Shown: piece after piece, positions 3,465 to 42,368 of the stretch
Layout: the number at the start of each line of letters is the position of its first letter
Position numbering within the stretch: the stretch's first letter is position 1
DNA from: Naegleria gruberi
Lineage: Eukaryota
Strand: one strand, 5' to 3'
DNA: 64,000 nucleotides
Assembly: GCA_000004985.1 (NCBI GenBank)
Contig: GG738867.1
Made by a program: the position numbers and the translations under genes
Notes under the pieces: model-generated
Told to the model about the DNA's origin: nothing
Database searches by the model: none
The model's input: only the letters and a program-made list of their open reading frames with translations

Positions 3465-4627
3465 ATGATAGAATTAATAATTAACAAGTTTAATATTCAA
3501 TTAGATAACAAACAAAAACCATCACATGTTAATTATTATATTACATGTAAATTTAATGAAAATATTCAACATCAACAACAACAACAACCATTAAATTCAC
3601 AAGCTACCAATAATAATAATAATAATAATGAATTAAATAGTAATAATAATAGTATTGAAATATTTGAAAGTGTAAAGAGATATAATGAATTATTATCATT
3701 ACATGAATCTATTTCAACGAATTTCCCCGACATTTTATCCAATATAACATTTCCTCCTAAAATATATTTTGGTAATTTTAAGGTATGTTTTTTATTAAGC
3801 ATTTCATCTTAATATAAATTATTAAAATATAATAGAATGATAAAATTGAACAACGTAAACAATTATTACAAATATATTTAAATAATATTATTAATAATAA
3901 TTTTAATAATAATAATAATATTAAATTTAAACAATATTTATATCATTATTTTAAATCAAATTCAAATGAACCAACTATAATTAATTCAAATATTTTAATT
4001 AATTCAAATATAAATAATAATTTAAATGATAATAATAATATAAATAATTATTACAAATTTCCATTAAGAAATTTAGATGAATATTTACCAAATATGAATA
4101 AAAATGAAATAATATCAACATTTTCATTAAAAAATGAAAGTGATAATATATTATCATTATCATCTGTAACAGGTGGATTCTATGGATTATTATTAAAATC
4201 TATTAATACATTATATCCAAATATATCAATTAATGAAATTAGTAAAAAATGTTTTGAAGAAATTGGTAAATTAAAATGTCAAGAATATTTAAAAAAACAA
4301 ACAAATGAAATGAAAGAATTTAATTTAGATACAAGATCAATAATATTAACATTAATAATGGCAATATTTAATGCTAGTCCTGAATATATTTTTAAAATTG
4401 AAAAATTTGAATCACAACAATCTATCATTTCTTTAAATGGTAAAGATAGATATTTAAGATCATGTATTGCATGTAATATTAATGATTATATTGAATTTCC
4501 TACTTTGAAAGAATTTTTAATTGGTGCTAGTTTAATTTTAAATTTAAATATTTCAGTTGATATTAAAATACATGAATGTAATAATTTAGATGAATTAAAT
4601 GTTACTTATATTATTAATTTAATTTAA
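3465..4627 (+). CDS. PX (phox) domain-containing protein, 2 exons
   Basis: Exon 1 3465..3782 ends ...FPPKIYFGNFK followed by GTATGT. The intron is about 3783..3835. Exon 2 3836..4627 continues DKIEQRKQLLQIYLNNIINN..., so the RYNEL...FPPK...F...IEQRKQLLQIYL pattern fits the C-terminal half of a PX domain. Exon 2 is in frame with track ORF 4094..4627. Confidence 0.55.
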
Positions 4628-4639
4628 TTTATTATTTTT

Positions 4640-5260
4640 ATTATATTTATTAATAATTTGTATTTAAATATGAAATTCAATGGTATTCATGATGACAATT
4701 CAATTGCACTCATGCAATTTCAATGATGAAGAAGGCTGGGCTTAACGTTGCTGTAATAAAAATATTTTTATAAAATTATTATTTTTTTGGTTTGAAAAAA
4801 AAATGTCCACACCTATTATTGTTCCACCATCACCACATAAAAACTTTCATATTGCTACCTTGTATTCTCAACATGTAAATAATAATGTTGAATTCAAAAT
4901 GAAGGTGCAAGTGAAGAAATGACANNNNNNNNNNNNNNNNNNNNNNNNNNNNNNNNNNNNNNNNNNNNNNNNNNTATAAAAAGCTGAAATTCAATGGTAT
5001 TCATTTCAATTACACTCATGCAATTTCAATGATGAAGAAGGCTCAGCCGTCTGGGCTTAACGTTGATCATATTATTAATAAAAATATTTTTATAAAATTA
5101 TTATTTTTTTGGTTTGAAAAAAAAATGTCCACACCTATTATTGTTCCACCATCACCACATAAAAACTTTCATATTGCTACCTTGTATTCTCAACATGTAA
5201 ATAGTGTTGAAATTCAAAATGAAGGTGCAAGTGAAGAAATGACACTTGATGAATTACTTT
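4640..5260. repeat. Direct duplication (~285 bp, a few percent diverged) flanking an assembly gap at 4925..4974
   Basis: Segment 4640..4924 and segment 4980..5264 share ...gaaattcaatggtattcat...atgtccacacctattattgttccaccatcaccacataaaaactttcatattgctaccttgtattctcaacatgtaaat... with small indels. The N run sits between the two copies. Confidence 0.6.
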
Positions 5261-6232
5261 TAAAACTTTCTATTAAATTAAACAAGGAACAAAAAGAATT
5301 ACTTGTTTTAATTCAAGGTGAAAAGAATGAACAAGTTTATTCTAAATTGAATGAACATTTAACACTTCGTTCATATCTTGTTAATGATTCTTTAACTATT
5401 TTTGATATTATTTTATATGTTTATTTATATGATAATATTATTCAATTAACAAAGAAACAACAATTATCTCTTGTTCATTTAATTCGTTATATTAATCATT
5501 TAAAAAACAAATTTAAATATTTTAATGATGTTAAATTAAATTTACAATCTGTTAAATTTAATTATAAGAATTTATTATTACAAGAACAACAAGAATTAAA
5601 ACAAAAAGAACAATTAACAACAACAACAACAAGGTTCTGCTTCCACTTCTGCTACTACTGCTACCAAGCCTAATGCTACTACAAAGGCTACCACTGCTAC
5701 AACAACAACAAGTGATGAATTAAATCCAAATAGTATTGAATTAACAGTTGGTAAAGTATTATCATGTGAAGATCATCCAGAAGCAACTAAACTCTATGTT
5801 GAAAAGATTAGTATTACAAGTGATAATTCTAAAGTCTTGACAATTTGTAGTGGATTGAAAGGTAAAATTGAAAAGGAATTAATTAGAGATAAATTAGTAT
5901 TATTAATGACTAATTTAAAACCTTCTAAAATGGTTGGTATTGAATCTGAAGGAATGTTATTAGCTGCTACTAATGAGCAAGACCAAGTTGAATTAATTTC
6001 ATTTGATAATATTAATGATTTACAACCAGGTGATAGAATTGTAATTGATGGTTTTGATATCATTCCTGTTGATAAACAAATTAAATCTGACAAGTTGGCT
6101 AAAAAGATTTTACCTTTCATTATGACAAATGAAAATGGTATTGTTACTTGGAAAGGTACAAATCAATGGAAAGTTTTAGGAAAGGAACACGTACATCCTA
6201 TTTCTAATTTTAAGAAAGTACCAGTTAAATAA
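5125..6232 (+). CDS. AIMP1/Arc1p-like protein with C-terminal EMAP-II/Myf-type tRNA-binding domain; reading frame interrupted
   Basis: ATG at 5125 (aaaaaaaaATG). The N-terminal 183 codons MSTPIIVPPSPHK...QEQQELKQKEQL end in frame A at 5673. The C-terminal domain ...ELNPNSIELTVGKVLSCEDHPEATKLYVEKISI...LKPSKMVGIESEGMLLAA...VPVK* is in frame A+1 and is open only from about 5618 to 6232. The switch occurs inside the (aca)5 tract at 5617..5634. The TVGKV...HP.A..L....I..G....I..G........G......NLKP..M.G..S.GM.L matches the tRNA-binding OB fold. Confidence 0.6.
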
Positions 6233-6507
6233 ATTTATTATTAATATTTATTAATTTATTTATTTTATATTATTTAATATTTATTTAATATTATTTAATA
6301 ATATTATTTCATAACTGTTGTTTGTTGTGGTGGATTTGTTTGATAATATTTCAATTACAATAATATTTAAAAATTAATTGTCAAAGTCATTGAATCAATA
6401 TAATAAATAGGATAACAAATTGTCATTTATCAAAATAAAAAAGTGTATTGCTGCCAAAATTCCTACCATTGACATTTGTACCTGTCAAATTAAATAACAG
6501 TAAAAAA

Positions 6508-9288
6508 ATGAGTGTTGCTCAACAACAACAACCGGTTGTTCATACTACCACTCAACAACAACAACACATCAATCATCATCATCATCAACAACAAGAACAA
6601 CATCATTCATCAACTACTACTAATAATCAACAACAATTACAACAAGAACAACGTCAAAAATTATTAAATAAAAGAAAATTAGTAATTCAAGAAATCTTTC
6701 AAACAGAGAAGGAATATGTTAATGCACTTGAAACATTAGATAATATATTTATAACACCAATTAAACAACAACAATTATTAAAAGAAGAAGATACCAATGA
6801 ATTATTTAAAGATATACAAATTATTCTAGCTGTTAATAAGGAAGTTTTATCTTTTATTGATATTTTTATTAAATATATGGAAGATCATAATTATAATGAT
6901 GATGATCTAAATAATACTTTAAATACTTTAAATAGTAGTAATAATAATGGTAATAATAGTGTTGGTGGTGTTGGTAGTAGCAGTGTTAGTGTTGGCGGTA
7001 ATACATTAGAAGTTAATAATAATAGTAATAATAATAATAATACAATATCTCCTTCTACACCAACAAGTGGTAATGATTTTACATCATCATTCTCTAATAA
7101 TAGTCAACCAACTACTCCAACCACAAATAATACATCCAATACTAATACAAATACAACAAATACATCCAATACAACAAATACAAATTCAAATAATAACAAA
7201 GAAATTGAACAAAAGAAAAGAAATGCATTAATATTAGGTAAAAAGATAACACCAACATTAGGTGATATATTTCATTTAATGTCAGATTATTTAAAAAGTT
7301 ATAGTAGTTATTGTAACAAGTATGAATTAATATTTAAAATGATTGAAGAAAAGAAACAAAAAAAGAGTAAATTTAGAAAGTTTTTAGAACGTACAGAATT
7401 TACACCTGATGCATTCAATGATTCAATTATATCATTCATGATTAAACCAGTTCAACGTATACCACGTTATGAAATGTTATTGAGAGAATCTATTAAAACA
7501 ACTCCACAAGATCATCACGACTATTCACGTCTCATTTCAGCTGCACAAAAGATTAATAATGTTGCATCGAGAGTCAATGAAAAGATTAGAGAACAATTAT
7601 GTAGAGAGAGAGCAATACAATTATCACAACAATTTAATTCAGATCAATTACCATTCGAATTGGTAAAGAGTAGTAGAAAATTTATAGCACACACTGTTAT
7701 GGGTTACATTTCAGATCGTTCAGGTATTCAAATGAGATGTTTTATTTTATATAATGATTTAATTTTATTATGTAATTATACTGGTAGTAGTAATTCTAAT
7801 AGTAATAATAATTCAAATAATAATTCTAATAGTACAAGTAATAGTACAGATCAAATGATGACTCAATTCTTTAATAATTCTAATAATTCTAATAATACAA
7901 GTAATAGTAATACAAATAATAATAATACAAATAATTTAACGAATATAACAAATATTAATGAAACTTATTCAAATGAACAAAAAAAGAAGGAAGTTGAAAT
8001 ATTTGATAATCCTAAAGTTAAATTTCATTTGAGATGTGCCATTTCATTATTATCAACACCATTAATATGGGCAGAATCATTACCAGATGGATATTGTATT
8101 GAAAATGCATTTAAATTAGTAACACGTGATAAAACATTTATACTATTTACAGAAAACAAAATTCAACGTGATTATTGGGTACAATTAATTAATGATCAAA
8201 TGGATAAATTAAAAAAACAATTACCACATTTAAATGAAGAATCAAATGCTAATGAAATAATGTTAGTCAATAGTAGATATTTCTATTATGCAAGTGGAAG
8301 TGAAAAAGATAAGAGAATTGAAATGTTAAATTCACAAATGTCAGATTCAAGTGAAAGATTAAAAATTGAAACTTCACTTCAACAAGATCATTTAAATTTA
8401 ATTATTGAACAAATACAGAAGGATGTTGATTTTATAGATCAACAATGTTATGATCATGAATATGTTCAATCAATGAATTATTTAAAATTACAACCATCAC
8501 ATCCACTATCAAATTCACATTCACAACATAGATTATCTGTTAATTCTCTAAATAATACCTGTGTGTTATCACCTTCCATTGATGATATTAATAATAATTC
8601 AAATGGATCTGGTAATAATTTACTTTCTAATTTAAATTCATCATCTGCTTCAAATTTAATAACAACATCTGCTGCTGCTGCTGCCAATAATAGTAGTAAT
8701 AGTAATAGTAGTTCATCTATATCACAATCTAAAAGAAATAGTACAAGTATTAAGAGTTTATTTAGTGGTGGTAGTGTTAATAGTAATGCAACAACACCAA
8801 CATCATCAGTTGCAACATCACCTGTTTCAGTATCACATGGTAATTCACTTTCACTTTCAAATTTATATGATCACCACGGTGCTCATTCACCTTCATCTTC
8901 GTATGGTTCAAGTCCACCTGTATATTTATCACCAAGTAATAATGCACTATCACCTTCACATCATCAGACAGGTCATTTGAGTGCATCGATAGCATTGAGA
9001 TCATCATCATCAACATCAACAACAACAAATAGAGATAGATCTAATAGTTTATATAATACTAGAATTGTAATACCACAACAACGTAATTCACAATCACCTA
9101 CCATTTTAAAAGAATTATTTCAAAAACTTAATACTGATTTTCAAGATCAAGAATTATCAACAAGTACTTCTAATTCAACAAGTAATAACATGACAACAAG
9201 TACATCTTCTATTAGTAGTAATAATAGTAATACTAATAATAGTAATAATACAAATAAAAGATTCATTTACAAAAAAGTTAACAGTTAA
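6508..9288 (+). CDS. RhoGEF (DH domain followed by PH-like domain), Gln/Asn-rich
   Basis: ATG at 6508 (taaaaaaaATG); track ORF begins earlier at a TTG. DH domain: KRKLVIQEIFQTEKEYVNALETLDNIF...VQRIPRYEMLLRESIKTT. A PH-like segment follows, then long Ser/Asn/Thr-rich low-complexity tail. Confidence 0.7.
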   Translation: MSVAQQQQPVVHTTTQQQQHINHHHHQQQEQHHSSTTTNNQQQLQQEQRQKLLNKRKLVIQEIFQTEKEYVNALETLDNIFITPIKQQQLLKEEDTNELFKDIQIILAVNKEVLSFIDIFIKYMEDHNYNDDDLNNTLNTLNSSNNNGNNSVGGVGSSSVSVGGNTLEVNNNSNNNNNTISPSTPTSGNDFTSSFSNNSQPTTPTTNNTSNTNTNTTNTSNTTNTNSNNNKEIEQKKRNALILGKKITPTLGDIFHLMSDYLKSYSSYCNKYELIFKMIEEKKQKKSKFRKFLERTEFTPDAFNDSIISFMIKPVQRIPRYEMLLRESIKTTPQDHHDYSRLISAAQKINNVASRVNEKIREQLCRERAIQLSQQFNSDQLPFELVKSSRKFIAHTVMGYISDRSGIQMRCFILYNDLILLCNYTGSSNSNSNNNSNNNSNSTSNSTDQMMTQFFNNSNNSNNTSNSNTNNNNTNNLTNITNINETYSNEQKKKEVEIFDNPKVKFHLRCAISLLSTPLIWAESLPDGYCIENAFKLVTRDKTFILFTENKIQRDYWVQLINDQMDKLKKQLPHLNEESNANEIMLVNSRYFYYASGSEKDKRIEMLNSQMSDSSERLKIETSLQQDHLNLIIEQIQKDVDFIDQQCYDHEYVQSMNYLKLQPSHPLSNSHSQHRLSVNSLNNTCVLSPSIDDINNNSNGSGNNLLSNLNSSSASNLITTSAAAAANNSSNSNSSSSISQSKRNSTSIKSLFSGGSVNSNATTPTSSVATSPVSVSHGNSLSLSNLYDHHGAHSPSSSYGSSPPVYLSPSNNALSPSHHQTGHLSASIALRSSSSTSTTTNRDRSNSLYNTRIVIPQQRNSQSPTILKELFQKLNTDFQDQELSTSTSNSTSNNMTTSTSSISSNNSNTNNSNNTNKRFIYKKVNS

Positions 9289-9345
9289 AATGATGTCAAA
9301 ATTTAAAAAATCAGGTCAAAAGAAAAAGATCAAGACACAGATCAA

Positions 9346-10317
9346 ATGTTATATTTAAGTGATGGAGAAGGTGAAGTGGATGAACCATTCTCTACTAATT
9401 TATTATCATACATGCAAGATATAACAAGAAGAAGAATTGATATGCAATACTTTGATGAATTTATTAAATTACATGAAAAACATGCTAAACAATTTGATCC
9501 TCTCATTCAGGAATTACAATTTGGATCAAAACCACAACATAATGTTGATAGATTATTGAGGAGGAAAGTATCAGAAATTAATTATGATAATTCAAATCAA
9601 CAAGAAGATGCCATTTCATATATGAGTGGTGGTATGAGTGGTGGTATGAGTGATAATCATAGATTTAGTGTTTGTTCAGTGAATGATAATGAAATTAATA
9701 CTTCAACTGAAATTACAGTTTCTTCACCAACAACTACATCTTTATTAGATTCTTCTAATAATAATAATAATAATACAATTATTAATGAATATTCTAATGA
9801 TGATAATAATGATAATAATAATAATAATAACACAACAGATAATAGTGCAGTACTTTATCATTCCAATTCAACATTATCCAATAATTCAACAAGTGATAAT
9901 AATAATTTATTTTCAACCATAACAGAACAACTTATAAAATTAAATCCTAATAGGGTAACACCACTTGTTAAAGAACATGTAATAGAAGAAATAGGTAATA
10001 CTAAATATACAACATTAGTATTCAATCCATTATATGGATTAAAAGATTTACCTACTACTAGAAAATATAGATTACAATATATTGATGAATTTAAAGATTG
10101 GAATGAATCAAGTGTTAATGATGAATATTCAAATTTTTTAAAGAATTTTTCAGACAAGTTTGGAATTCCAAATGAAATTAACACATCATCATCACCTTCT
10201 AGATCTTCAAATGCAGATAAATCTAATCCATATAATAATAATAATAATAATAATACTAATACAACAACAACAACAGAAAATGATAAAAAGAGAAGAAGTT
10301 TATTCTTTTGGAAATAA
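9346..10317 (+). CDS. Hypothetical Asn-rich protein
   Basis: 323-aa ORF with ATG start. It contains MSGGMSGGMS and poly-Asn tracts. No recognised domain. Two in-frame stops separate it from the upstream RhoGEF. Confidence 0.4.
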   Translation: MLYLSDGEGEVDEPFSTNLLSYMQDITRRRIDMQYFDEFIKLHEKHAKQFDPLIQELQFGSKPQHNVDRLLRRKVSEINYDNSNQQEDAISYMSGGMSGGMSDNHRFSVCSVNDNEINTSTEITVSSPTTTSLLDSSNNNNNNTIINEYSNDDNNDNNNNNNTTDNSAVLYHSNSTLSNNSTSDNNNLFSTITEQLIKLNPNRVTPLVKEHVIEEIGNTKYTTLVFNPLYGLKDLPTTRKYRLQYIDEFKDWNESSVNDEYSNFLKNFSDKFGIPNEINTSSSPSRSSNADKSNPYNNNNNNNTNTTTTTENDKKRRSLFFWK

Positions 10318-10732
10318 TAAATTATTTTATTGAAAGACCTATATTGAATCTTGTTATTATCTTTTTTTAAAATCTACAAATGATGATGATTAGCATCACC
10401 TTTCTTTTTTAAAAAAATAAGACACTCTACTTACTCAAATATCACAACTACAACTAGTAGTATTAAGATTTTAATCCTTAATAACTTGATAACTTCCGAA
10501 AGGGTTATGAAATTATCATAATTATTATCATTATTCAATATAAATACTTTCCTATTCTCATACCGCGGCTGTAAATACATCATATTACATCATCCATCAT
10601 TTACTATCATTATCTCTCTCTATCTTATTACATCAAACAACATTAACAATACAAGAAACAACAATTCATCACACTAATTGTCTATTTACATCATCCTATA
10701 TTATTATTATTATTATTAATTATAAAAAGAAA

Positions 10733-13700
10733 ATGTCATCATTTAATTTACATCAACAACAACGTAATGTATCAACAACATCTACATCTCCTTTTAATTT
10801 TCATGATTTTTCATTAGAAATGACAAATTTAAATAATCAAACAATTAAAAAATCATCACGTTTAGATTCTTATTTAGGAAAGAATAATAATACTAATAAT
10901 AATAATCAAAATACTACCAATAATTCACCACGTAAATTTTTAGAAGATGATTTAGGAAATAAAGCTAATAATCCACGTCGTAGAAGATCATCTGTTATGA
11001 GACATATATCATCTATTACTACAAATAGAGATGAATCTAATATACCAAATAAAGAAAATCAAAAACAAATAATTGAAGAAGAAAAGAAAAAGAAAAGATT
11101 AGCACAATTAGAATATATATTTAGAGATCAATTAAAAGAAGAAGAAGAAAGAATGAAACAATTACAAAAAAGGAAAAATTCAAATACAAATATGGGAAAA
11201 TTATCAAGACAATCATCATTTAATTCATCATCTAATAATAATTTATTAATTAATATACCATCACCTAATAATAGTTCTAATAATACTTTATTATCACCAA
11301 ATATTCAACAACAATATTATCAATTTACAAATAATAATAATTTAAATAATAATTATTCATCATCTCCTCATTTATCACCACATAATAGTTATTTATCACT
11401 TAATCATCAAAATCATTCATCACCAAATCATTTAAATAATTCACATAATAATAATATATTATTACATAATCAAAATCATTCACCTAATTCTTCTTCTAGT
11501 CATAATTTACATTCAAGTAATTCACCTAATTCTCAAATGATAAATCGTGCTAATAATTTTCATTCATCATCACCTATAAATAATCCACCTACATTATTAT
11601 CGCCTTCATTTAATAATTTACATTCAATTCATCATCATTCTAATAATACTAATAATACTAATAATAATAATAAAATATCAAATAATAATAATAATATAAA
11701 TGATTTAAAAGCACCACCTAAATTATTTATTGATGATGATGAAGAAGATGATGAAGAATTAAAAAGACCATCAATTGTAAATTATTTAAAAAATAGAATT
11801 AAAAGAAATGATTTAAATGAAATATTACCATTTATGGATAGATTAAATTTATCATATTTAAAATATAAAGAAATACCAAATGATATTTCATTATTTTCTG
11901 GATTAATTGAATTAAATTTATCACATAATTATTTAAAAATATTTAATGGAATGTTAATAGCAGAATCATGTCCAAATTTAATTAATTTAGATTTATCTTT
12001 TAATAGAATTAATAATATAAATATGGTAATTGATTTATGTAATTTAAAAAAATTAATTACTTTAAATATATCAAATAATCCTATTAGATTTATTGATAAT
12101 AGAATTGCAATTTTACAAAAATTATTACATTTTAAACCAATTCAAATGATGGATAAGGAAAAATTAAAAGATTTGGAATTATCTAAAATTAGAAATAAAA
12201 GAAAAACATCAATGAAATTAAATCATTTTAATGATACAATTAATCATTCAAACAATTCAAATAATTCAAATAATTCAAATACAAATAATAATAACATGTT
12301 ATCACCAAGATCACCTAAAACACCAAGATCACCACGTACTGGAAATCATAAATTAATTGTAAATATTGAAACACCTTCATTATCTACTACTAATACTAAT
12401 AATAATAATAATAATGAAAATCATTTAAATACACCTAATATATCTATTACAAATAATGATATAGATCATCATCAACAATTAGATTCTAATAATAATAATT
12501 TAAGTAGTAATAATCAACATAATTCTAATACAAATACAAATAATAATGAAAATAAATTCATGTTACATACAGAGAGTAGTATAAAAAAAGATGCAAGTTT
12601 ATTTAAAAGTAATCCAATATATGAATCACAATTAACATTAAATAAAGTAAAAAAAGCTAAATTATTAATTACTAGTTTAAGAAGATGGAATCAAAAAAGA
12701 GAAAATTCATCATCATCAAATAATTCAAATAATTTAAATAATTTAAATAATTTAGAAATGAATATTAAATCTAAAATTAAACAAACTGTAAATTCACACA
12801 TTCCAATAGACATGTCACCATTTATACAATCAATGAATCAACATATTAATATTAAATCATTACAATCTGTTACAACAACAATACAATTACAAGATAATTC
12901 AAAATCTAAAGTTATTGATGTTAAAAAATTTAGAGGAGAAGATTCACCATTTCCATCTTTACAAGTTTTAAATGGATTTCCAATATCAGCTGAAGAATAT
13001 TTAATTTCCTTAAATGAAGAAATTTATGATACATGTTCAAAATCAAATAATTTAAATGATTTGGAAAAGAAAAATCAAAAAACTTTAATTTTAAAAGATA
13101 ATGCTAAAAAAATTAAAAGAAAAATTGAATTTGATTCAACTGTTGATTTTACAAATAGAAAATTTTCATTATCTGCAACAAAAGATTTATTAAAAAGAAG
13201 ATATTTACAACAAAAATCTAATTCTAGTAATAATTCTAATAATAATACTGCTAATAATACTTCATCTTTAACTTTTGATGAATTTGTTAAACATACTTGG
13301 GTTGCAGAAGATGATGAATTTGTAGATGAAGAAGAAGAAATACATTTAGAACAAAAAAAAAATAATTTAAATAATTCTAATAATAATTCTAATAATGGAA
13401 ATAATTCTAATAATACATCTGATAATAATACAAATAATTCAAATAATACAAATAATTCAAATTCAAATAATTCTAATAATAATTCTAATAATAATAATTC
13501 AAATAATATTGTAAATAATTCAACAACACAAAAATTAAAAGATTTAAATGTTCATGTTACATTTTCAGATGTAATTAAAAATGAATTTTATGAAAATCGT
13601 AAAGTGACAGATGACATTTTAAATACTAAACGTAAATCAATTATAGATTTTAGACCATTTAAAGAACAATTATTAGATTTAACACCTGATCAAATTGAAA

Positions 13701-14278
13701 TGAAATTTAAAAGAATTGAATTAAAAGAAAATTCATCTAAATTTAGAGATTTAATTGAACATAAAATTGATGATCGTGAAATTTTTATTACAAAATTAAA
13801 ACAAGAATATGAAGAATCTAAAAATCCTAAAAAAAATTTAAATTTAAATGATGAAATTACAAATTATTTACATAAAAAAGATGATCAACGAAAATTTATA
13901 CCTAAAAAAATTGAATTAATTTCAAATTCAAATACAAAATTAAATGTTCCATATTTAGATAAATTTTCATTAGGTTCAAAATATTTAGAAGAATTAGGAA
14001 TGATACATGATCATTTTAATGAAAAATCAAGAGTTAATGAAAGTAATAATAATACTTTAAATAATTTAAATAATTCCAATAATAGTAATACAAATACAAA
14101 TACAAATAATAACAATACGAACAATACAAATAATAATACAAATAATGTACAACAAGATAGTAGAAGAGAATTTGAAGAATTAAAGGCTTTGAAAATGACA
14201 AGAAAGAAATATTCATTGGAAGGTAAAAAATGTTTAATTGATGGAAAGGAATTTGTTTTTTCAAATTTATTTGTTTAA
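10733..14278 (+). CDS. Leucine-rich-repeat protein, 1181 aa, with extensive Asn-rich low complexity
   Basis: Single long ORF with ATG at 10733. LRR block: LNLSHNYLKIFNGMLIAESCPNLINLDLSFNRINNINMVIDLCNLKKLITLNISNNPIRF. Multiple (aat)n-type microsatellites with 9-nt periodicity encode N/S runs. Confidence 0.6.
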   Translation: MSSFNLHQQQRNVSTTSTSPFNFHDFSLEMTNLNNQTIKKSSRLDSYLGKNNNTNNNNQNTTNNSPRKFLEDDLGNKANNPRRRRSSVMRHISSITTNRDESNIPNKENQKQIIEEEKKKKRLAQLEYIFRDQLKEEEERMKQLQKRKNSNTNMGKLSRQSSFNSSSNNNLLINIPSPNNSSNNTLLSPNIQQQYYQFTNNNNLNNNYSSSPHLSPHNSYLSLNHQNHSSPNHLNNSHNNNILLHNQNHSPNSSSSHNLHSSNSPNSQMINRANNFHSSSPINNPPTLLSPSFNNLHSIHHHSNNTNNTNNNNKISNNNNNINDLKAPPKLFIDDDEEDDEELKRPSIVNYLKNRIKRNDLNEILPFMDRLNLSYLKYKEIPNDISLFSGLIELNLSHNYLKIFNGMLIAESCPNLINLDLSFNRINNINMVIDLCNLKKLITLNISNNPIRFIDNRIAILQKLLHFKPIQMMDKEKLKDLELSKIRNKRKTSMKLNHFNDTINHSNNSNNSNNSNTNNNNMLSPRSPKTPRSPRTGNHKLIVNIETPSLSTTNTNNNNNNENHLNTPNISITNNDIDHHQQLDSNNNNLSSNNQHNSNTNTNNNENKFMLHTESSIKKDASLFKSNPIYESQLTLNKVKKAKLLITSLRRWNQKRENSSSSNNSNNLNNLNNLEMNIKSKIKQTVNSHIPIDMSPFIQSMNQHINIKSLQSVTTTIQLQDNSKSKVIDVKKFRGEDSPFPSLQVLNGFPISAEEYLISLNEEIYDTCSKSNNLNDLEKKNQKTLILKDNAKKIKRKIEFDSTVDFTNRKFSLSATKDLLKRRYLQQKSNSSNNSNNNTANNTSSLTFDEFVKHTWVAEDDEFVDEEEEIHLEQKKNNLNNSNNNSNNGNNSNNTSDNNTNNSNNTNNSNSNNSNNNSNNNNSNNIVNNSTTQKLKDLNVHVTFSDVIKNEFYENRKVTDDILNTKRKSIIDFRPFKEQLLDLTPDQIEMKFKRIELKENSSKFRDLIEHKIDDREIFITKLKQEYEESKNPKKNLNLNDEITNYLHKKDDQRKFIPKKIELISNSNTKLNVPYLDKFSLGSKYLEELGMIHDHFNEKSRVNESNNNTLNNLNNSNNSNTNTNTNNNNTNNTNNNTNNVQQDSRREFEELKALKMTRKKYSLEGKKCLIDGKEFVFSNLFV
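13190..13510. repeat. Coding microsatellite block (aat/tct/aat 9-nt periodic repeats) encoding N/S-rich low complexity
   Basis: aataattctaataataattctaataatggaaataattctaataatacatctgataataatacaaataattcaaataatacaaataattcaaattcaaataattctaataat... Similar tracts occur at 12243..12292 and 14040..14150. Confidence 0.7.
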
Positions 14279-32930: not shown

Positions 32931-33677
32931 ATGAGTTCGCGTATTGAATACATTTCACCTGAAGGATTGCGAGTTGATGGAAGACGTTCCCATGAAATTA
33001 GAAATATTAAATTTAAATTAAATTTATTTAGTAGAGCCGATGGATCAGCATATTATGAACAGGGCAATACACGTGTATTAGCTGCTGTTTATGGTCCGAG
33101 AGAAGTCAAAAATAAATCACAAATGAAGAATGATAGAGCAATTATTAATTGTGAATATAGTATGGCAACATTTAGTACAGGAGAAAGAAAGAGACAATTC
33201 AAAAAGGATAGAAGATCGACTGAAATTTCAGTTGTGATTAGACAAACATTTGAATCTGTAATTTTAACACATTTATATCCAAGAACACAAATTGATATTT
33301 TCATGCAAGTTCTTCAAGCTGATGGAGGTACTAGATGTGCTTGTATAAATGCTGCAACACTTGCCTTATTAGATGCAGGTATTCCAATGAAAGATTTTGT
33401 TGTTTCATGTGCTGCTGGATTTATTCAAGGTTCTCCATTAACAGATTTAAATTATATTGAAGATTGTGCTGGTGGTCCAGATGTACCAATTGCTCTTCTT
33501 CCAAAACATGATAAGGTCACTTTATTACAAATGGATTCGAAATTATCTTTGGATCAATTTGAAAAGGTTTTGGAACATGCAATAGAGGGTTGTAAACAAA
33601 TTCACAAAGTTATAGATGAACAATTGAAGAAACATACGTATGCACTGGTGAATAAAAGAGGTCTGTTTTCGGCCTAA
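32931..33677 (+). CDS. rrp41: Exosome complex component RRP41 (RNase PH-like, EXOSC4/Ski6)
   Basis: 248-aa ORF. LRVDGRRSHEIRNIKFKL...ADGSAYYEQGNTRVLAAVYGPREV... is the canonical RNase PH domain 1 N-terminus of Rrp41. Confidence 0.8.
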   Translation: MSSRIEYISPEGLRVDGRRSHEIRNIKFKLNLFSRADGSAYYEQGNTRVLAAVYGPREVKNKSQMKNDRAIINCEYSMATFSTGERKRQFKKDRRSTEISVVIRQTFESVILTHLYPRTQIDIFMQVLQADGGTRCACINAATLALLDAGIPMKDFVVSCAAGFIQGSPLTDLNYIEDCAGGPDVPIALLPKHDKVTLLQMDSKLSLDQFEKVLEHAIEGCKQIHKVIDEQLKKHTYALVNKRGLFSA

Positions 33678-33777
33678 TTATATTACATTGTAATATCCTT
33701 TATCTCTTTCTTTGTTATTGTTCTGAAGCCATGTAAAGGGTGAACTGATTTATATTTCAGAAATTAAGATAGTTGAT

Positions 33778-33895
33778 GGCTACGGCCATATCACGATGAA
33801 TGCACCTCATCCCGTCCGATTTGAGAAGTTAAGCATCGTCGAGCCACATCAGTACTGAGGTTGGAGACAACTTGGGAACCTGTGGTGCTGTAGTC
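33778..33895 (+). rRNA. 5S ribosomal RNA gene, copy 1
   Basis: GGCTACGGCCATATCACGATGAATGCACCTCATCCCGTCCGATTTGAGAAGTTAAGCATCGTCGAGCCACATCAGTACTGAGGTTGGAGACAACTTGGGAACCTGTGGTGCTGTAGTC. The 5' and 3' ends pair as helix I, box A-like AGTTAAGC and box C-like GGTTGGAGAC are present, and a T5 terminator follows. Confidence 0.85.
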
Positions 33896-34022
33896 TTTTT
33901 CTTGCAGATTTCACACTTTTGAACTTGGTTTTTCAACAATATTGGCTTGTTTTTATTGGTTTTCAATATTGATTCATTGAGATATTTCCACAACAAAACA
34001 AAATAACTAAATAACCAACACT

Positions 34023-34274
34023 ATGAGCAAAATGCCAGCTAGAAATACTTCATCAAATTCTTCTTACGAAGATAGAATTCCAACAAAAACGGTCTGGTCA
34101 AGATCTAAACCAATTATAGATGGAACTAGACATCGTAATAAAATTGATTATCATCTTGCAAATTTAAATGGTAAACAAATTTCAGTGAAAAGATCTTCGA
34201 AAAATTCAATTGAAAAGAGAGCTAAACAACAATCAACCACCACTAAGAAGATTACCAAATCGAAAAAGATGTAA
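34023..34274 (+). CDS. Small basic ORF (83 aa) between the two 5S genes; may be non-coding
   Basis: MSKMPARNTSSNSSYEDRIPTKTVWSRSKPIIDGTRHRNK...KKITKSKKM with an ATG start. Very basic. No similarity recognised. Confidence 0.25.
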   Translation: MSKMPARNTSSNSSYEDRIPTKTVWSRSKPIIDGTRHRNKIDYHLANLNGKQISVKRSSKNSIEKRAKQQSTTTKKITKSKKM

Positions 34275-34881
34275 ATTAACTTGTAACTAATTCAGTAAAT
34301 TGTAAATAACGTTTTGAAATAGATGAAGTTTCAATTTAGAATTGATCAGAATATGAGAAACCAAAATTTGCATCAAGCAATTCAACATGGCAACAGTTCA
34401 ATAAATACTAGGTTGATCAACCTTATCTATTTCTTCAAACAAAACCTGAACCAACAAGATTCTGTCTTCGTTGCCTTCACTGTTCATACAGTCAAAGACT
34501 GTAGCGGGATTGTCGCCATATTCCTGGCAGGCTTCCCGTCGTATCTAATTAATTGAAAATTTTTTTAATTGACATTGCTTCTAAGTAGCGATCTAGTAGA
34601 ATTCGACTCTAAGTTACACAACTTAAAGGCAGTTATAAATATGGTTACTAAAGTTCAAAGTGTTAGATCATTAAGTACTGGTTGGAAATAATGCTCCAAT
34701 TGTTAAAGTTATTGATAACTATAAGGATGAGCAAAATGGTTCTTTCATCCAATTTGATGGAACTCAATTGAAATGGTCATACATTTGCTATTTTACTGAG
34801 TTACGGATGTGGTTTGCCTTGTATTCAGTGGATTATATATAGAGTGAACTGATTTATATTTCAGAAATTAAGATAGTTGAT

Positions 34882-34999
34882 GGCTACGGCCATATCACGA
34901 TGAATGCACCTCATCCCGTCCGATTTGAGAAGTTAAGCATCGTCGAGCCACATCAGTACTGAGGTTGGAGACAACTTGGGAACCTGTGGTGCTGTAGTC
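34882..34999 (+). rRNA. 5S ribosomal RNA gene, copy 2
   Basis: Identical to copy 1 and preceded by the same ~40-bp element gtgaactgatttatatttcagaaattaagatagttgat. A T-rich terminator is immediately downstream. Confidence 0.85.
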
Positions 35000-35209
35000 T
35001 TTTATCTTTTTGTCTTTTTGTGGAATAGAATGACCATTCAATTAGAAACAGTAAAAGTATGAAACAAATTTGTTGTTTTATTTCATATAAATAGGCTTCT
35101 CCCATATTTGTCAAGCTAATGAAATAATTTTCATAATATGGAATTATTGACACAACTTTTGAATAACATCTGTCAATTTTAATTTCAATTCCAGATCTTT
35201 CATCCTTCA

Positions 35210-35746
35210 AGATGAAAAGTTATAGTTCATCGTCACTATCTTCATCACTTTCTTCATATAAAAGATAAAGCTGTCCCTCCTTTCATCCACATATAATACA
35301 TCAATATTATTGTAATCTGATTGATTTAAATTAATTTCTCTTTTTTTTGATCCATTCAATAAATCCATTACATAGATTGTATTAATATTATGTATGATAT
35401 ACATTTCATTCTTTGATTTAGCACAATTCATTTTATACTTTGAACTAATCTTACTTTCCCAAATAGGAGATTCTTTTGAATAATCTGTTACATTATCTAA
35501 TATTTTATATTTCTTAATACAATCTCTTGTTCCAATATAAACATTCTGAAATTGACTGTCAATCTGAACAGAACTAAATAAAGGTAATTTAAATTTAAGT
35601 TTCCATGATTTACATTCTGAATCAAATACATAACATTGTTTCTTGGTAGTTATGGCAATTATTAAATTATTTAATTGCTTAGTTGTAACTGTAGTTAAAT
35701 ATGTAATACCAGCAAGTTCTGGAATTGTATCTATTTTATGGAAAGA
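35210..35746 (-). CDS. Hypothetical protein, terminal exon(s); 5' exon not identified
   Basis: The minus-strand frame is open from 35746 to the stop at 35210 (179 codons, ...HKIDTIPELAGITYLTTVTTKQLNN...MNCAKSKNEMYII...NYNFSS*). It has no in-frame ATG until 35431, so an upstream exon is expected. Confidence 0.3.
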
Positions 35747-36090
35747 TCAACTAGGAGGAAATTAATTTTGAAATAATGGATGGAATAATGGATGGAATAA
35801 TATCAGTTTTACTAATTCTTGTTCATCTTCGTGCTGTTCTCTTTGGGGAATTTCACTACATATTGCAGCTTTAAGCTTTTTGGAGTGCTGATCATTTATA
35901 CTAATTTGTCGCAGTTGACTTTCTCTTCATTTTTTTTAATTTGGGAGGAAATTGGAAGTTTTTTTAGAGGAATAAATTTCTGAATTTGACCATTAAATTG
36001 AGCAAACACATATCTTTCAATTTATTCAAATATTGGGATCATCCAGATTCATTTATTTACATTGTTATTTTTTATTTAAAATTAAAAAAA

Positions 36091-37575
36091 ATGCAAACAA
36101 TTCAAAAGGCATTTAATATTGATCATTCTTTAAATTGGATCGGAAAGGAATTAAAAATATATGATCGTTCCAATGATAATGAAGATAAATCCTATGATGA
36201 ATGGTTATTAAATTATTCGGATACACTTGTTGCTGTTTCAAGGGATTGTAAATTAGTTGGAATTGGACATTATCGTCATTGTTATTTATGTATATATGAT
36301 AATTCTATAAATGAATTTGAATTAATTCAAGTAAATTCACCATGTAAATATGAAGGGTAAATATGAATATTATTATTTTAATATTTATTTGGATTAAGAG
36401 AGAAAATTACTTGTTTAATGTGGATTTCATTTAGTAATCAAAATTTTCTAATGATTGGATCTTCGGAAGGTTATTTGAGAATTTATGATGTTCAACAAGA
36501 TAAAATTATTCGTGAAGAGAGATTTCACGATTTGGAAATTGTTAAAATTCGATCACAAAGTGTTTTTCACAACACACTTCTTCCAAATTTTCAAAAAGAA
36601 ATTATTTTAATAATATATCCTAATCATGTCATCACTATTGATCCTCTCCATCTCAAAAAGGAATTAAATAGTGAAAATCCTTCCATGGATTTGGATGATT
36701 TAGAATACAAGAAATGGAATTTACAAGAATTTGCTAAACTTAATGATGCTTGTTGTTTATATTCTCATTGTTCTGATTCTTCAATTTTTGAAGTGATGGA
36801 AGAAAAGAGTGAATTTGATATTGTAGCGGTTGGTAAATCAACACTAGCTCTCTACTCAACAGCTAATGAAATTGTTGAATATGTGAGAAAGAGAACAAGA
36901 GTGAAGAAAATTGCAACACAAGTAGCAAGCAAAGTTTATTCTCTTGCATCCAATTACAGCTCATGGTTATGGGGAGGAAATAAGGAAGTTGAGCAACCGA
37001 GTGAACCTGAAGAACCAGAAATATTACCAGGTACACGTATTCCAATTTCCAATCGATTCATAGATGAAAAGAGAGAAATATTTCATGCTGATTTGGATTA
37101 TACAGGAAAATATTTGGCAACGAGTGATTCTTTGGGAAGAATTTTAATATTTGATTTATCAACCATGACTGTTATGAAAGTATTTAAAGGATACAGAGAA
37201 GCTCATTGTTATTGGTTTTTCACTGGATCAGAACCTGAAAATATGAATAGTGAATCAAATATTGAATTATTATTGATATTTGCACCTAGGAGAGGCATAT
37301 TGGAATGTTGGACCATTGATGGAAGGAGATTATATGCACTAACCGTTGGAACTGATAAGAGATTTATTAAGGCATCTGGAAATTTCATTGAAGGAAAAGA
37401 AACAACCTTTCATCCTTCACAATTTTATCTCATCTCACAAACAGATGGATCCATTCAACAAGTAGAATTTGACATTTCACTTGAAAAGATACAAAAAAGT
37501 GATTTTATTGATAATTCCTCTTCTTCAGGTTCTGCAAATCCATTCAAATTACTAATGGAAAATAAACTCAATTAA
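36091..37575 (+). CDS. RAB3GAP2-like protein (Rab3-GAP regulatory subunit N-terminal domain), 2 exons, ending at an in-frame TAA
   Basis: Exon 1 36091..36356 (MQTIQKAFNIDHSLNWIGKEL...SPCKYEG, donor GTAAAT). Exon 2 36435..37575 after acceptor tttcatttag. The block HADLDYTGKYLATSDSLGRILIFDLSTMTVMKVFKGYREAHCYWF...[28 protein letters not shown] is collinear with human RAB3GAP2 ...[35 protein letters not shown]...[29 protein letters not shown]. Confidence 0.65.
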
Positions 37576-40953: not shown

Positions 40954-42368
40954 ATGTACGAAAACAAGCTAAACAGTTACAATAACAAACAAGGTTCAAC
41001 GTTATATCTGGTTGGTGAATTAATGTCACTTTCACATGCTGTATTTCCAGGAGAGCACGTATTCAAAGTTTCTTCCACTTCAGTTTCAGAATTTGAACCT
41101 TTTAAAATTGATGATACTAATTCCGATCTTACAAAGATTGCTGATGCTATTTATCAAAAAGTGGTTCATTTACCAAATATCAATGTTGTAAAAGGTATGA
41201 AATTTGCGTTACTTGCGTTTGTTAAATTTAGTATTATAATAATAATAATATCTGTAAAAATGATGTTGAACAAAATCAATCGATTAACACTGTGATATTT
41301 AGTAATTTCTGGTCGTCATCACACTCATCTCATCACATTCGAAGGAAGAATTTTGAGTTTTGGAACAAATGGTAATGGTGAATTATGTTGTGGAGTATCT
41401 GGAGCATTAGGTGGTTCTCCAATTAGAGGTCTCATTAGAGCTGAAGGTTTGTTTTTAATGATTATAAGTTTGATTGTAAATTCATTTGTTAACAAATTAC
41501 AACAACAACAACAATATAGGTGTTATCAATGAATATAAAATAATTGACGGAGCTGGAGGTGGATATCACAGTATTTTCATTTCAATTGATGGTTCAGTAT
41601 TTGTAAATGGATCTAATTCAGCTAATCAATTGGGAATTTCAGATACTGAATCTCAAAAGAAACCAGTTAAACTTCCAAGTGATTATTTTGATGGTCAACC
41701 TATTTGTAAAGTAGGAGCTAACAATACTCATTCTGTATTTATTACAAGAAATTCTCAAGTTTATGTTGCAGGATCTGATTCTAATGGATGTTGTGCAGGT
41801 ATTAAAAGTAGTTCAGTACCTTTATTATTGAAATTTCCAATACAATTTACACCAATTGATGTCAGTTGTGGTTATGATGATACTAAATTTCTAACAAGTC
41901 AAGGTGTGTNNNNNNNNNNNNNNNNNNNNNNNNNNNNNNNNNNNNNNNNNNNNNNNNNNNNNNNNNNNNNNNNNTCATTCGAGGTTTTCAGATATTATTA
42001 AAATATCAAATGGATATTTCTGTCAATCATTTCAAACAAGTGATTTTTTGGTTCATGGAAGTTCAGTAATTGAAGATCAATTTCTTGAAAATTTTCATTC
42101 AGGTGATTATGACATTTATATTACAAAGGAATTTAATCCAAAAACTAAAGGATTTGGATTTATTAGAAAGTTGGATGGAACTGATTTGACTGGTGAATTT
42201 AACTTTAATGATTTGGTTGAACAAGTTGGAATTTCATCTCAAAGAAATCATTTTATTATTCATACTTATAGAGATGATTATAATCCAATTCATGAACATT
42301 TCATATTCTTTATTAAATTAATTGGAAATGACAGATTACCTTTAAATGATATTAAATTTATTTTTTAA
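40954..42368 (+). CDS. RCC1-repeat protein, at least 4 exons, interrupted by assembly gap 41910..41974
   Basis: Exons are about 40954..41194, 41303..41446 (ISGRHHTHLITFEGRILSFGTNGNGELCCGVSGALGGSPIRGLIRAEG) and 41520..41909 (GVINEYKIIDGAGGGYHSIFISIDGSVFVNGSNSANQLGISD...VYVAGSDSNGCCAG...); then 41975..42368 after the gap. The repeated hS..lt.dG.v...G.N..GQLG pattern is typical of RCC1 blades. Confidence 0.6.
41910..41974. other. Assembly gap (65 N) inside the RCC1-repeat gene
   Basis: Run of n characters. Confidence 0.95.

What the first reader, a model, noticed from the sequence alone, without database searches (positions are those of the whole stretch)
33737..35000. Two identical 5S rRNA genes in tandem in a protein-coding chromosomal neighbourhood, each with the same 40-bp upstream element
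Identical 118-nt 5S genes lie at 33778..33895 and 34882..34999 on the plus strand, 1.1 kb apart. Each is preceded by the identical sequence gtgaactgatttatatttcagaaattaagatagttgat and followed by a T run. Sequence further upstream and downstream of the two units is unrelated. The duplicated unit is therefore about 160 bp, and the conserved 5' element is a candidate upstream promoter element for RNA polymerase III. In the best-studied dictyostelid, Dictyostelium discoideum, 5S genes sit on the extrachromosomal rDNA palindrome. Dispersed chromosomal 5S copies between RRP41 and a RAB3GAP2-like gene would therefore be a notable difference, or would indicate a different lineage.
Basis: partly seen in the sequence, partly recalled or inferred. 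Interest (0 to 1): 0.55.

Follow-up and report, generated by a model that had tools for sequence, protein, structure and literature searches.

The report
Two catalogued Naegleria gruberi 5S genes
The two identical 5S ribosomal RNA genes are real. The DNA comes from the amoeba Naegleria gruberi, not a slime mould, and these two copies are already listed among its roughly 279 scattered chromosomal 5S genes, so the finding is ordinary.

Summary
Two identical 5S rRNA genes (Rfam RF00001, 105.4 bits each) lie at 33778-33896 and 34882-35000 on the + strand. Each has the same 38 bp upstream and a T-run downstream, and the flanks beyond are unrelated.

The lineage guess is wrong. The window is Naegleria gruberi scaffold_23:1-64000. 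A window protein is 100% identical to an N. gruberi protein. Table S1 of PMC3369914 lists 5S genes at scaffold_23 33781-33897 and 34885-35001. That paper reports 279 putative chromosomal 5S genes, an upstream TATA box, an internal control region, and no link to the rDNA. Naegleria rDNA plasmids carry only 18S, 5.8S and 28S, so chromosomal 5S genes are expected.

New details from this work:
- Orthologous loci in N. lovaniensis, Willaertia magna and two uncultured relatives carry Eaf7 and no 5S. These copies therefore arose in the N. gruberi lineage.
- The 38-bp element holds a TATA-like TTTATATTT at -29..-21.
- A relative with a 5S differing by 1 nt conserves only the proximal ~30 bp (18/30, p about 0.001).
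- Three dispersed copies in another related species share no upstream sequence.

A promoter role is plausible but unproven. A conserved, structured 64-nt element of unknown nature lies between the two genes.

The parts
33740..33777 (+). 38-bp upstream element, copy 1 (GTGAACTGATTTATATTTCAGAAATTAAGATAGTTGAT). TATA-like TTTATATTT at 33749-33757, which is -29..-21.
   Evidence: Exact duplicate of 34844-34881; only two occurrences in the window with up to 3 mismatches, 0 expected. TATA position.
33778..33896 (+). 5S rRNA gene 1. This is R33378, scaffold_23 33781-33897, in PMC3369914 Table S1.
   Evidence: RF00001, 105.4 bits, full-length. Box A consensus matched at +50..+64; box C-like at +80..+97 with 2 mismatches. 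Published coordinates.
33896..33900 (+). T-run (TTTTT), the likely Pol III terminator of gene 1.
   Evidence: Read directly from the sequence.
34844..34881 (+). 38-bp upstream element, copy 2. TATA-like at 34853-34861.
   Evidence: Identical to copy 1.
34882..35000 (+). 5S rRNA gene 2. This is R33659, scaffold_23 34885-35001, in PMC3369914 Table S1.
   Evidence: RF00001, 105.4 bits. Published coordinates.
35000..35003 (+). T-run (TTTT), the likely Pol III terminator of gene 2.
   Evidence: Read directly from the sequence.
32931..33677 (+). RRP41 (exosome RNase PH subunit), the upstream neighbour. It ends 100 bp before gene 1.
   Evidence: 96% identical to P0001 and 88% to the Willaertia magna protein; the hits carry PF01138/PF03725.
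36418..37575 (+). Main exon of the RAB3GAP2_N-domain gene, the downstream neighbour.
   Evidence: Pfam PF14655, E=1.2e-48. 100% identical to an N. gruberi predicted protein, P0121.
34482..34545 (+). Conserved structured 64-nt element of unknown nature in the spacer between the two 5S genes. It forms two adjacent hairpins and is not part of the 5S units.
   Evidence: 83-90% identical copies in L022 and twice in L025, both contigs that also carry Naegleria-type 5S genes. RNAalifold finds 20 pairs, 5 with compensatory changes, and G-U pairs favour the + strand. A covariance model finds only these 4 copies in 198 kb. No Rfam hit at E<=1.
34023..34274 (+). 83-aa basic ORF in the spacer, with no support as a gene.
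   Evidence: ORF list; no Pfam match.

Best explanation
These are two of the roughly 279 scattered chromosomal 5S rRNA genes of Naegleria gruberi, at scaffold_23 positions 33.8 and 34.9 kb. Naegleria keeps 18S/5.8S/28S on a multicopy circular plasmid that lacks 5S, so 5S must be supplied by chromosomal genes. Each copy is a self-contained RNA polymerase III unit of about 160 bp. It has a TATA-like box near -25, an internal control region (box A at +50, a box C-like sequence at +80), and a run of four or five T as terminator. These functional assignments are inferred. The 160 bp of perfect identity inside unrelated flanks shows a recent DNA-level copying event. This was either gene conversion or insertion of a short unit, not retroposition, because untranscribed upstream DNA is included. 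The copies were gained at this locus in the N. gruberi lineage. Related species have the Eaf7 gene there and no 5S.
For: 1. 5S identity: RF00001, 105.4 bits, twice, both full length.
2. Organism: the window protein 36418-37572 is 100% identical to 'predicted protein [Naegleria gruberi]' on a 424,055-bp contig. PMC3369914 Table S1 lists scaffold_23 33781-33897 and 34885-35001, the same coordinates and the same 1104-bp spacing.
3. Genome-wide pattern: my tabulation of that table gives 279 entries on 117 scaffolds, and 62 have a neighbour within 5 kb.
4. Published description: the paper's Table 1 records for N. gruberi 279 copies, not located with the rDNA units, ICR present, TATA box present.
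5. rDNA plasmid: Naegleria plasmids encode only 18S, 5.8S and 28S (PMC12482156).
6. Promoter elements: TATA-like TTTATATTT at -29..-21, box A exact at +50, box C with 2 mismatches at +80.
7. Synteny: N. lovaniensis L017, metagenomic L020, W. magna L001 and L002/L018 have RRP41 then Eaf7(-) then RAB3GAP2 or the ZNHIT3-like gene. None has a 5S.
8. Dispersed context in a relative: L007 holds a single 5S, differing by 1 nt, between protein genes.
Against: No transcription data were available, so promoter, start site and terminator are inferred. Cross-species support for the upstream element is modest. Anchored ungapped identity to L007 is 18/30 (p about 0.001 before correction for the six lengths tried). 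Gapped and local alignments are not significant, with p=0.16 and 0.22. Three dispersed copies in a related species share nothing upstream. Box C departs from the consensus at two positions. PMC3369914 reports that TFIIIA was not found in N. gruberi by BLAST, so a classical type 1 mechanism is not assured.
Confidence: 0.9

Rival explanations
1. This is a dictyostelid genome in which 5S genes have left the extrachromosomal rDNA palindrome and dispersed onto chromosomes.
For: The DNA is AT-rich (29% GC) with long AAT/poly-Asn tracts, which resembles Dictyostelium.
Against: The best named RRP41 hit is Willaertia magna at 88%, and no dictyostelid is among the top 120. Nucleotide-level synteny holds with W. 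magna and N. lovaniensis. There is a 100% protein match to N. gruberi. Published N. gruberi 5S coordinates coincide with the window.
Confidence: 0.01
2. The 5S copies are an assembly artefact: a collapsed or mis-joined rDNA element placed in this scaffold.
For: The scaffold is a draft with N gaps at 2274-2323, 4925-4974 and 41910-41974. One gap is flanked by a duplicated 128-bp edge. The local gene order also differs from relatives, since Eaf7 is missing.
Against: There are no N runs within 33-36 kb. Both flanks are syntenic single-copy genes. The Naegleria rDNA plasmid does not carry 5S. Dispersed singletons and loose pairs are the genome-wide pattern, with 117 scaffolds holding 5S entries. 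A relative also has a lone 5S between protein genes.
Confidence: 0.03
3. The 38-bp identity only marks the edge of a recent duplication or conversion tract and has no promoter function beyond a generic A/T-rich box. Transcription is directed by the internal control region.
For: Three dispersed copies with identical gene bodies in a related species (L023-L025) have unrelated upstream sequence right up to -1. About ten dispersed copies of another 5S type (VFQM/VFQO contigs, lineage not determined) also have non-conserved upstream flanks. Gapped alignment of the N. gruberi and L007 upstream regions is not significant. A shared TTAAGA-type motif is not significant by my own rough estimate once motif choice is allowed for (not a tool result).
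Against: Position-anchored identity with L007 is 18/30 in the proximal 30 bp against 9.4 +/- 2.6 expected. The TATA-like box sits at the position where TFIIIB/TBP binds in other systems (established knowledge). PMC3369914 independently reports a TATA box upstream of N. gruberi 5S genes and failed to find TFIIIA.
Confidence: 0.4
4. The copies are retroposed 5S pseudogenes or SINE-like elements rather than functional genes.
For: They are dispersed, short, identical units in unrelated flanks.
Against: The shared unit includes 38 bp of untranscribed upstream DNA. There is no poly(A) tail and no obvious target-site duplication. The genes score as full-length canonical 5S with all helices paired. 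They are identical to the 5S body in contig L021 and differ by 1 nt from that in L007.
Confidence: 0.03

Closest known systems
Naegleria gruberi chromosomal 5S rRNA gene family (279 putative genes; PMC3369914, Table S1, Table 1, Figure 2)
   Same: These are the same two genes, entries R33378 and R33659 on scaffold_23, at the same coordinates and spacing. They have an upstream TATA box, an internal control region and T-run terminators, and they are not linked to the rDNA.
   Different: Nothing essential differs. Added here are the exact extent of the shared unit (38 bp + gene + T-run), the absence of 5S at the orthologous locus in four relatives, and the second-tightest spacing among the listed pairs.
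Dispersed 5S genes with upstream TATA elements in other eukaryotes (Schizosaccharomyces pombe, Neurospora crassa and Trichomonas vaginalis, recalled from the literature; Yarrowia lipolytica scattered 5S genes, PMC2566860)
   Same: The 5S genes are scattered among protein-coding genes rather than in long tandem arrays. Each has its own short flanks, with a TATA-like box near -25/-30.
   Different: The lineage is different (Heterolobosea). There is no tRNA-5S dicistron as in Yarrowia, and no tRNA in the window. Functional dependence on the TATA box has not been shown for Naegleria.
[quoted passage not shown]
   Same: Both organisms keep the large rRNA genes on a multicopy extrachromosomal element.
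   Different: In D. discoideum the 5S gene sits on that element. In Naegleria the plasmid carries only 18S/5.8S/28S (PMC12482156) and 5S is chromosomal. The window is not from a dictyostelid.

Membership tests
5S rRNA (Rfam RF00001) | Covariance-model score at or above the gathering threshold over the full model | tested here: met
   105.4 bits against 38, model 1-120/120, both copies.
5S rRNA (Rfam RF00001) | Three-way junction fold with helices I-V and conserved loops | tested here: met
   The cmscan alignment shows all helices paired, no non-canonical pair flagged, and posterior probabilities at maximum.
5S rRNA (Rfam RF00001) | Expression and incorporation into ribosomes | not testable with these tools
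   No RNA data were available. The identical gene body in contig L021, and one differing by 1 nt in L007, argue for constraint.
N. gruberi catalogued 5S genes (PMC3369914 Table S1) | Same scaffold, coordinates and spacing as a listed entry | tested here: met
   scaffold_23 33781-33897 and 34885-35001 against window 33778-33896 and 34882-35000. The organism is confirmed by a 100% protein match.
Type 1 Pol III promoter (TFIIIA-dependent internal control region) | Box A consensus near +50 | tested here: met
   AGTTAAGCATCGTCG at +50..+64 matches N-S-Y-Y-A-A-N-C-N7.
Type 1 Pol III promoter (TFIIIA-dependent internal control region) | Box C consensus near +80 | tested here: inconclusive
   GAGGTTGGAGACAACTTG at +80..+97 has 2 mismatches to NNGRTGGGNGWCCNYNNG.
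Type 1 Pol III promoter (TFIIIA-dependent internal control region) | TFIIIA present in the genome | not tested
   PMC3369914 reports no TFIIIA found in N. gruberi by BLASTp/PSI-BLAST. This was not re-examined here.
Upstream TATA-assisted 5S promoters | TATA-like box about 25-30 bp upstream of +1 | tested here: met
   TTTATATTT at -29..-21 in both copies. A/T-rich boxes lie at a similar position in L007, L023 and most of the other 5S loci recovered.
Upstream TATA-assisted 5S promoters | Transcription depends on the upstream element | not testable with these tools
   This needs in vitro transcription or a reporter assay.
Dictyostelid rDNA-palindrome-linked 5S | Dictyostelid host and linkage to 17S/26S rDNA | tested here: not met
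   The host is N. gruberi. No other rRNA is present in the window.
Retroposed 5S pseudogene / 5S-derived SINE | Copy limited to transcribed sequence, with an A-rich tail and target-site duplication | tested here: not met
   The shared unit includes 38 bp upstream of +1. There is no A-tail and no flanking direct repeat.

The most novel reading that the evidence does not exclude
Two readings remain open. (a) In the N. gruberi lineage the proximal ~30-38 bp upstream block (TATA-like box plus AGAAATTAAGATAGTTGAT) is a lineage-specific external promoter on which 5S transcription depends. This would fit the reported failure to find TFIIIA, and would make these genes work more like type 3 than type 1 Pol III genes. 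(b) The conserved, structured 64-nt element at 34482-34545 recurs next to 5S and tRNA genes in two other Naegleria-type contigs. It could be an undescribed small RNA gene, or the conserved hairpin end of a mobile element that moves 5S units around.
Probability: 0.2. Interest if true: 0.45.

Novelty: already known. Interest (0 to 1): 0.12.

Why it matters
It matters little as a discovery. The genes, their dispersed chromosomal arrangement and their TATA box were published in 2012 for this genome. The check is useful mainly as a correction, because AT-rich DNA with poly-Asn tracts does not by itself identify a dictyostelid. Two modest points go beyond the literature consulted here. First, the 5S copies at this locus are absent from the orthologous interval in four relatives and sit where Eaf7 lies in them. 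This documents turnover of 5S gene positions within the Naegleria/Willaertia clade. Second, an unannotated structured element sits between the two genes and recurs beside Pol III genes in related contigs.

Tried and rejected
- The exact-protein look-up of RRP41 and of the N. gruberi protein P0121 found no contig on record. The rest of the N. gruberi genome could therefore not be fetched, and the question 'does the 38-bp element accompany every 5S?' stays open.
- Heidel et al. 2011 (dictyostelid genomes) is not held in the library. It became irrelevant once the lineage was settled.
- The 5S core pattern gave nothing in viral contigs or in bacterial/archaeal genome contigs.
- The pattern for the 64-nt element gave nothing in viral contigs or in bacterial/archaeal genome contigs.
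- Gapped and local alignment tests of the upstream region against L007 were not significant. Only the position-anchored ungapped test was.
- A shared TTAAGA-type motif in three of six upstream regions is not significant once the post hoc choice of motif is allowed for (my own rough estimate, not a tool result).
- Eaf7 was searched for in the window by tblastn and not found; the best E was about 3.
- The spacer ORFs of 83 and 77 aa have no Pfam match. The 77-aa ORF covers the structured element. By hand translation of the aligned copies, the changes fall mostly on codon positions 1 and 2, and they preserve base pairs. A coding reading was therefore rejected.
- The Rfam search at E<=1 over 33-37 kb gave nothing besides 5S, apart from a chance-level snoZ165 hit (24.8 bits against a gathering score of 90).
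- The sigma-70/terminator scan is not applicable to a eukaryote and was uninformative.

Full report
**Observation**

There are exactly two Rfam matches in 64 kb. Both are 5S_rRNA (RF00001) at 105.4 bits (threshold 38), both span the full model, and they lie at 33778-33896 and 34882-35000 on the + strand.

The genes are identical. Perfect identity extends from 33740 to 33899 in copy 1 and from 34844 to 35003 in copy 2. That is 38 bp upstream, the 119-nt gene and the first Ts of the terminator. The 38-mer occurs only at these two places even with three mismatches allowed, against none expected. Outside this roughly 160-bp unit the flanks are unrelated.

There is no tRNA gene in the window. A permissive Rfam search of 33-37 kb adds nothing credible.

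**Which organism**

The proteins say otherwise.
- RRP41 (32931-33677) is 96% identical to an unnamed protein from a Logan-assembled sequencing run (SRR29240419). It is 88% identical to a Willaertia magna protein. No dictyostelid appears among the best 120 hits.
- Nucleotide-level synteny with a W. magna contig and with Naegleria lovaniensis extends over several genes on both sides.
- The RAB3GAP2_N-domain exon (36418-37572; Pfam E=1.2e-48) is 100% identical to 'predicted protein [Naegleria gruberi]' on a 424,055-bp contig.
- Table S1 of PMC3369914 lists putative N. gruberi 5S genes R33378 at scaffold_23 33781-33897 and R33659 at scaffold_23 34885-35001. These coordinates equal the window coordinates with a 3-nt offset in the call boundaries, and the spacing is the same 1104 bp.

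The window is therefore N. gruberi scaffold_23:1-64000, and the two genes were catalogued in 2012.

**What is already known**

- PMC3369914 reports 279 putative 5S genes in N. gruberi. They are not located with the rDNA units, and they have an internal control region and an upstream TATA box. TFIIIA was not found by BLAST.
- PMC12482156 states that Naegleria rRNA genes are on a circular extrachromosomal plasmid. The plasmids recovered there encode single copies of 18S, 5.8S and 28S, which means no 5S.
- I tabulated the 279 listed positions. They fall on 117 scaffolds. Sixty-two entries have a neighbour within 5 kb, and the median gap between neighbours on a scaffold is about 34 kb. The pair studied here (1104 bp) is the second tightest.

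Scattered singletons and loose pairs among protein-coding genes are thus the normal state of this genome.

**Anatomy and likely mechanism**

- Each unit has a TATA-like TTTATATTT at -29..-21.
- Each has an exact match to the box A consensus at +50..+64 and a box C-like sequence at +80..+97 with two mismatches.
- Each ends in a run of four or five Ts.

From established knowledge of Pol III genes, this is a self-contained 5S transcription unit. TBP/TFIIIB would sit over the upstream box. Internal elements would recruit TFIIIC, with or without a TFIIIA-like factor. Termination would occur at the T-run. None of these steps is shown here; they are inferred.

The shared unit includes untranscribed upstream DNA. 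It lacks an A-tail or target-site duplication. The two copies therefore arose by a DNA-level event, either conversion or insertion of a short unit, and not by retroposition.

**Is the 38-bp block a promoter?**

I looked for further 5S loci of this type in two ways.
- A metagenome scan with a 24-nt 5S core.
- A protein search with the antisense ORF that runs through the gene. Gene callers sometimes report this ORF as a 'protein'.

The results were as follows.
- Contig L007 carries a single 5S that differs by 1 nt from N. gruberi's and lies between protein-coding genes. Its upstream region resembles the N. gruberi block only in the proximal part. Anchored ungapped identity is 18/30 against 9.4 +/- 2.6 expected, p about 0.001 before allowing for the six lengths tried. 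Gapped and local alignments are not significant.
- L022 carries a variant 5S in a tRNA cluster. It shares TTCAG-TATTAAGAT, but 8 nt further from +1.
- In a related species from one ENA assembly, three dispersed copies (L023-L025) have identical gene bodies and entirely unrelated upstream sequence.
- About ten dispersed copies of another 5S type (VFQM/VFQO contigs, lineage not determined) likewise share only an A/T-rich patch near -25 to -30 and TTC at -1.

The fair conclusion is that an A/T-rich box near -25 is general. The proximal block may be a lineage-specific addition. The perfect 38-bp identity in this pair mostly records how recent the copying was. Testing whether all N. gruberi copies carry the block needs the whole assembly, which I could not reach.

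**Origin at this locus**

The interval after RRP41 differs between N. gruberi and its relatives.
- In N. lovaniensis (L017), an uncultured relative (L020), W. magna (L001) and the SRR29240419 organism (L002/L018), Eaf7 lies on the opposite strand immediately downstream of RRP41.
- In the Naegleria-type loci, RAB3GAP2 follows Eaf7. In L020 it is immediately downstream of Eaf7. In N. lovaniensis a 377-aa gene and a reverse-transcriptase gene intervene. In SRR29240419 the contigs break between Eaf7 and RAB3GAP2.
- In W. magna the ZNHIT3-like gene follows Eaf7, and the RAB3GAP2 homologue lies elsewhere on the same contig.
- None of these loci has a 5S gene.
- In N. gruberi, Eaf7 is absent from the whole window. 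The interval instead holds about 2.3 kb of mostly non-coding DNA with the two 5S genes.

The 5S genes were therefore gained here in the N. gruberi lineage. This is evidence for turnover of 5S gene positions. A mis-assembly is unlikely. There is no gap in 33-36 kb, both flanks are syntenic, and the rDNA plasmid has no 5S to be mis-joined.

**A by-product: a conserved structured element**

The spacer between the two genes contains a 64-nt, relatively GC-rich element at 34482-34545 (+).
- It recurs at 83-90% identity in L022, next to 5S and tRNA genes, and twice in L025, next to a 5S gene.
- RNAalifold predicts two adjacent hairpins with 20 pairs. Five pairs carry compensatory changes, and G-U pairs favour the + strand.
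- No Rfam family matches. Nothing was found in viral or prokaryotic collections.
- By my reading of the aligned flanks, there is no consistent terminator on either strand. The differences between copies do not look like protein-coding change.

Its nature is unknown. It could be a small RNA, or the conserved end of a mobile element.

**Verdict**

It is wrong on lineage and on novelty. The feature is already known, and interest is low.

Noticed in passing
window 34482-34545 (+); L022 1077-1140 (+); L025 1253-1316 (-) and 2627-2690 (-): A conserved 64-nt element forms two adjacent hairpins. Five base pairs carry compensatory changes. It lies between the two 5S genes and recurs beside 5S/tRNA genes in two other Naegleria-type contigs. 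There is no Rfam match and no consistent terminator. It may be a small RNA gene or the end of a mobile element.
   Followed up: partly
window 33678-36400 compared with L017 4356-4763, L020 3372-3725, L002 10751-11158, L001 10741-11100: The Eaf7 gene lies immediately downstream of RRP41 in N. lovaniensis, W. magna and two uncultured relatives. It is missing from this interval and from the whole 64-kb window in N. gruberi. Mostly non-coding DNA with the two 5S genes takes its place.
   Followed up: partly
window 4754-4881 and 5076-5203, flanking the N-run 4925-4974: A 128-bp perfect direct repeat sits on either side of a scaffold gap. Further similar sequence surrounds it. It looks like unmerged overlapping gap edges in the draft assembly rather than biology. 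Other N-runs lie at 2274-2323 and 41910-41974.
   Followed up: partly
L022 1-1354: A metagenomic contig with a Naegleria-type 5S variant. The variant has a 2-nt insertion in the helix III/loop C region and scores 92 bits. It is packed with tRNA-Met, two tRNA-Glu and a partial tRNA within 1.35 kb, so this is a dense Pol III gene cluster. The contig also holds a roughly 40-bp direct repeat (CCGGTCAAATTGATTTTGTTGGCTAAGAATCAAATTCGAG).
   Followed up: no
L017 6334-9921: In N. lovaniensis a reverse-transcriptase/RNase H gene (retroelement) is inserted in the same RRP41-RAB3GAP2 interval that holds the 5S genes in N. gruberi. The interval seems prone to insertions.
   Followed up: no
window 34895-35041 (-) and 33829-33996 (-): The antisense strand of the 5S gene is an open reading frame. 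Eight 'proteins' in the public protein collection are simply this antisense translation of Naegleria-type 5S genes called on metagenomic contigs. They are spurious gene calls.
   Followed up: yes
window 3500-14200: Very long AAT-rich (poly-Asn/Ser/Thr) coding tracts bring GC down to 18-24%. This low-complexity composition is what makes the sequence look dictyostelid-like.
   Followed up: no
L003-L006, L008-L012, L014, L015 (VFQM/VFQO metagenome contigs): About ten dispersed copies of a second 5S type (GGGTACGGTCATCTTG...) share the helix III/loop C core. Each lies in a different flank, with only an A/T-rich patch near -25 and TTC at -1 in common. The organism was not identified.
   Followed up: no
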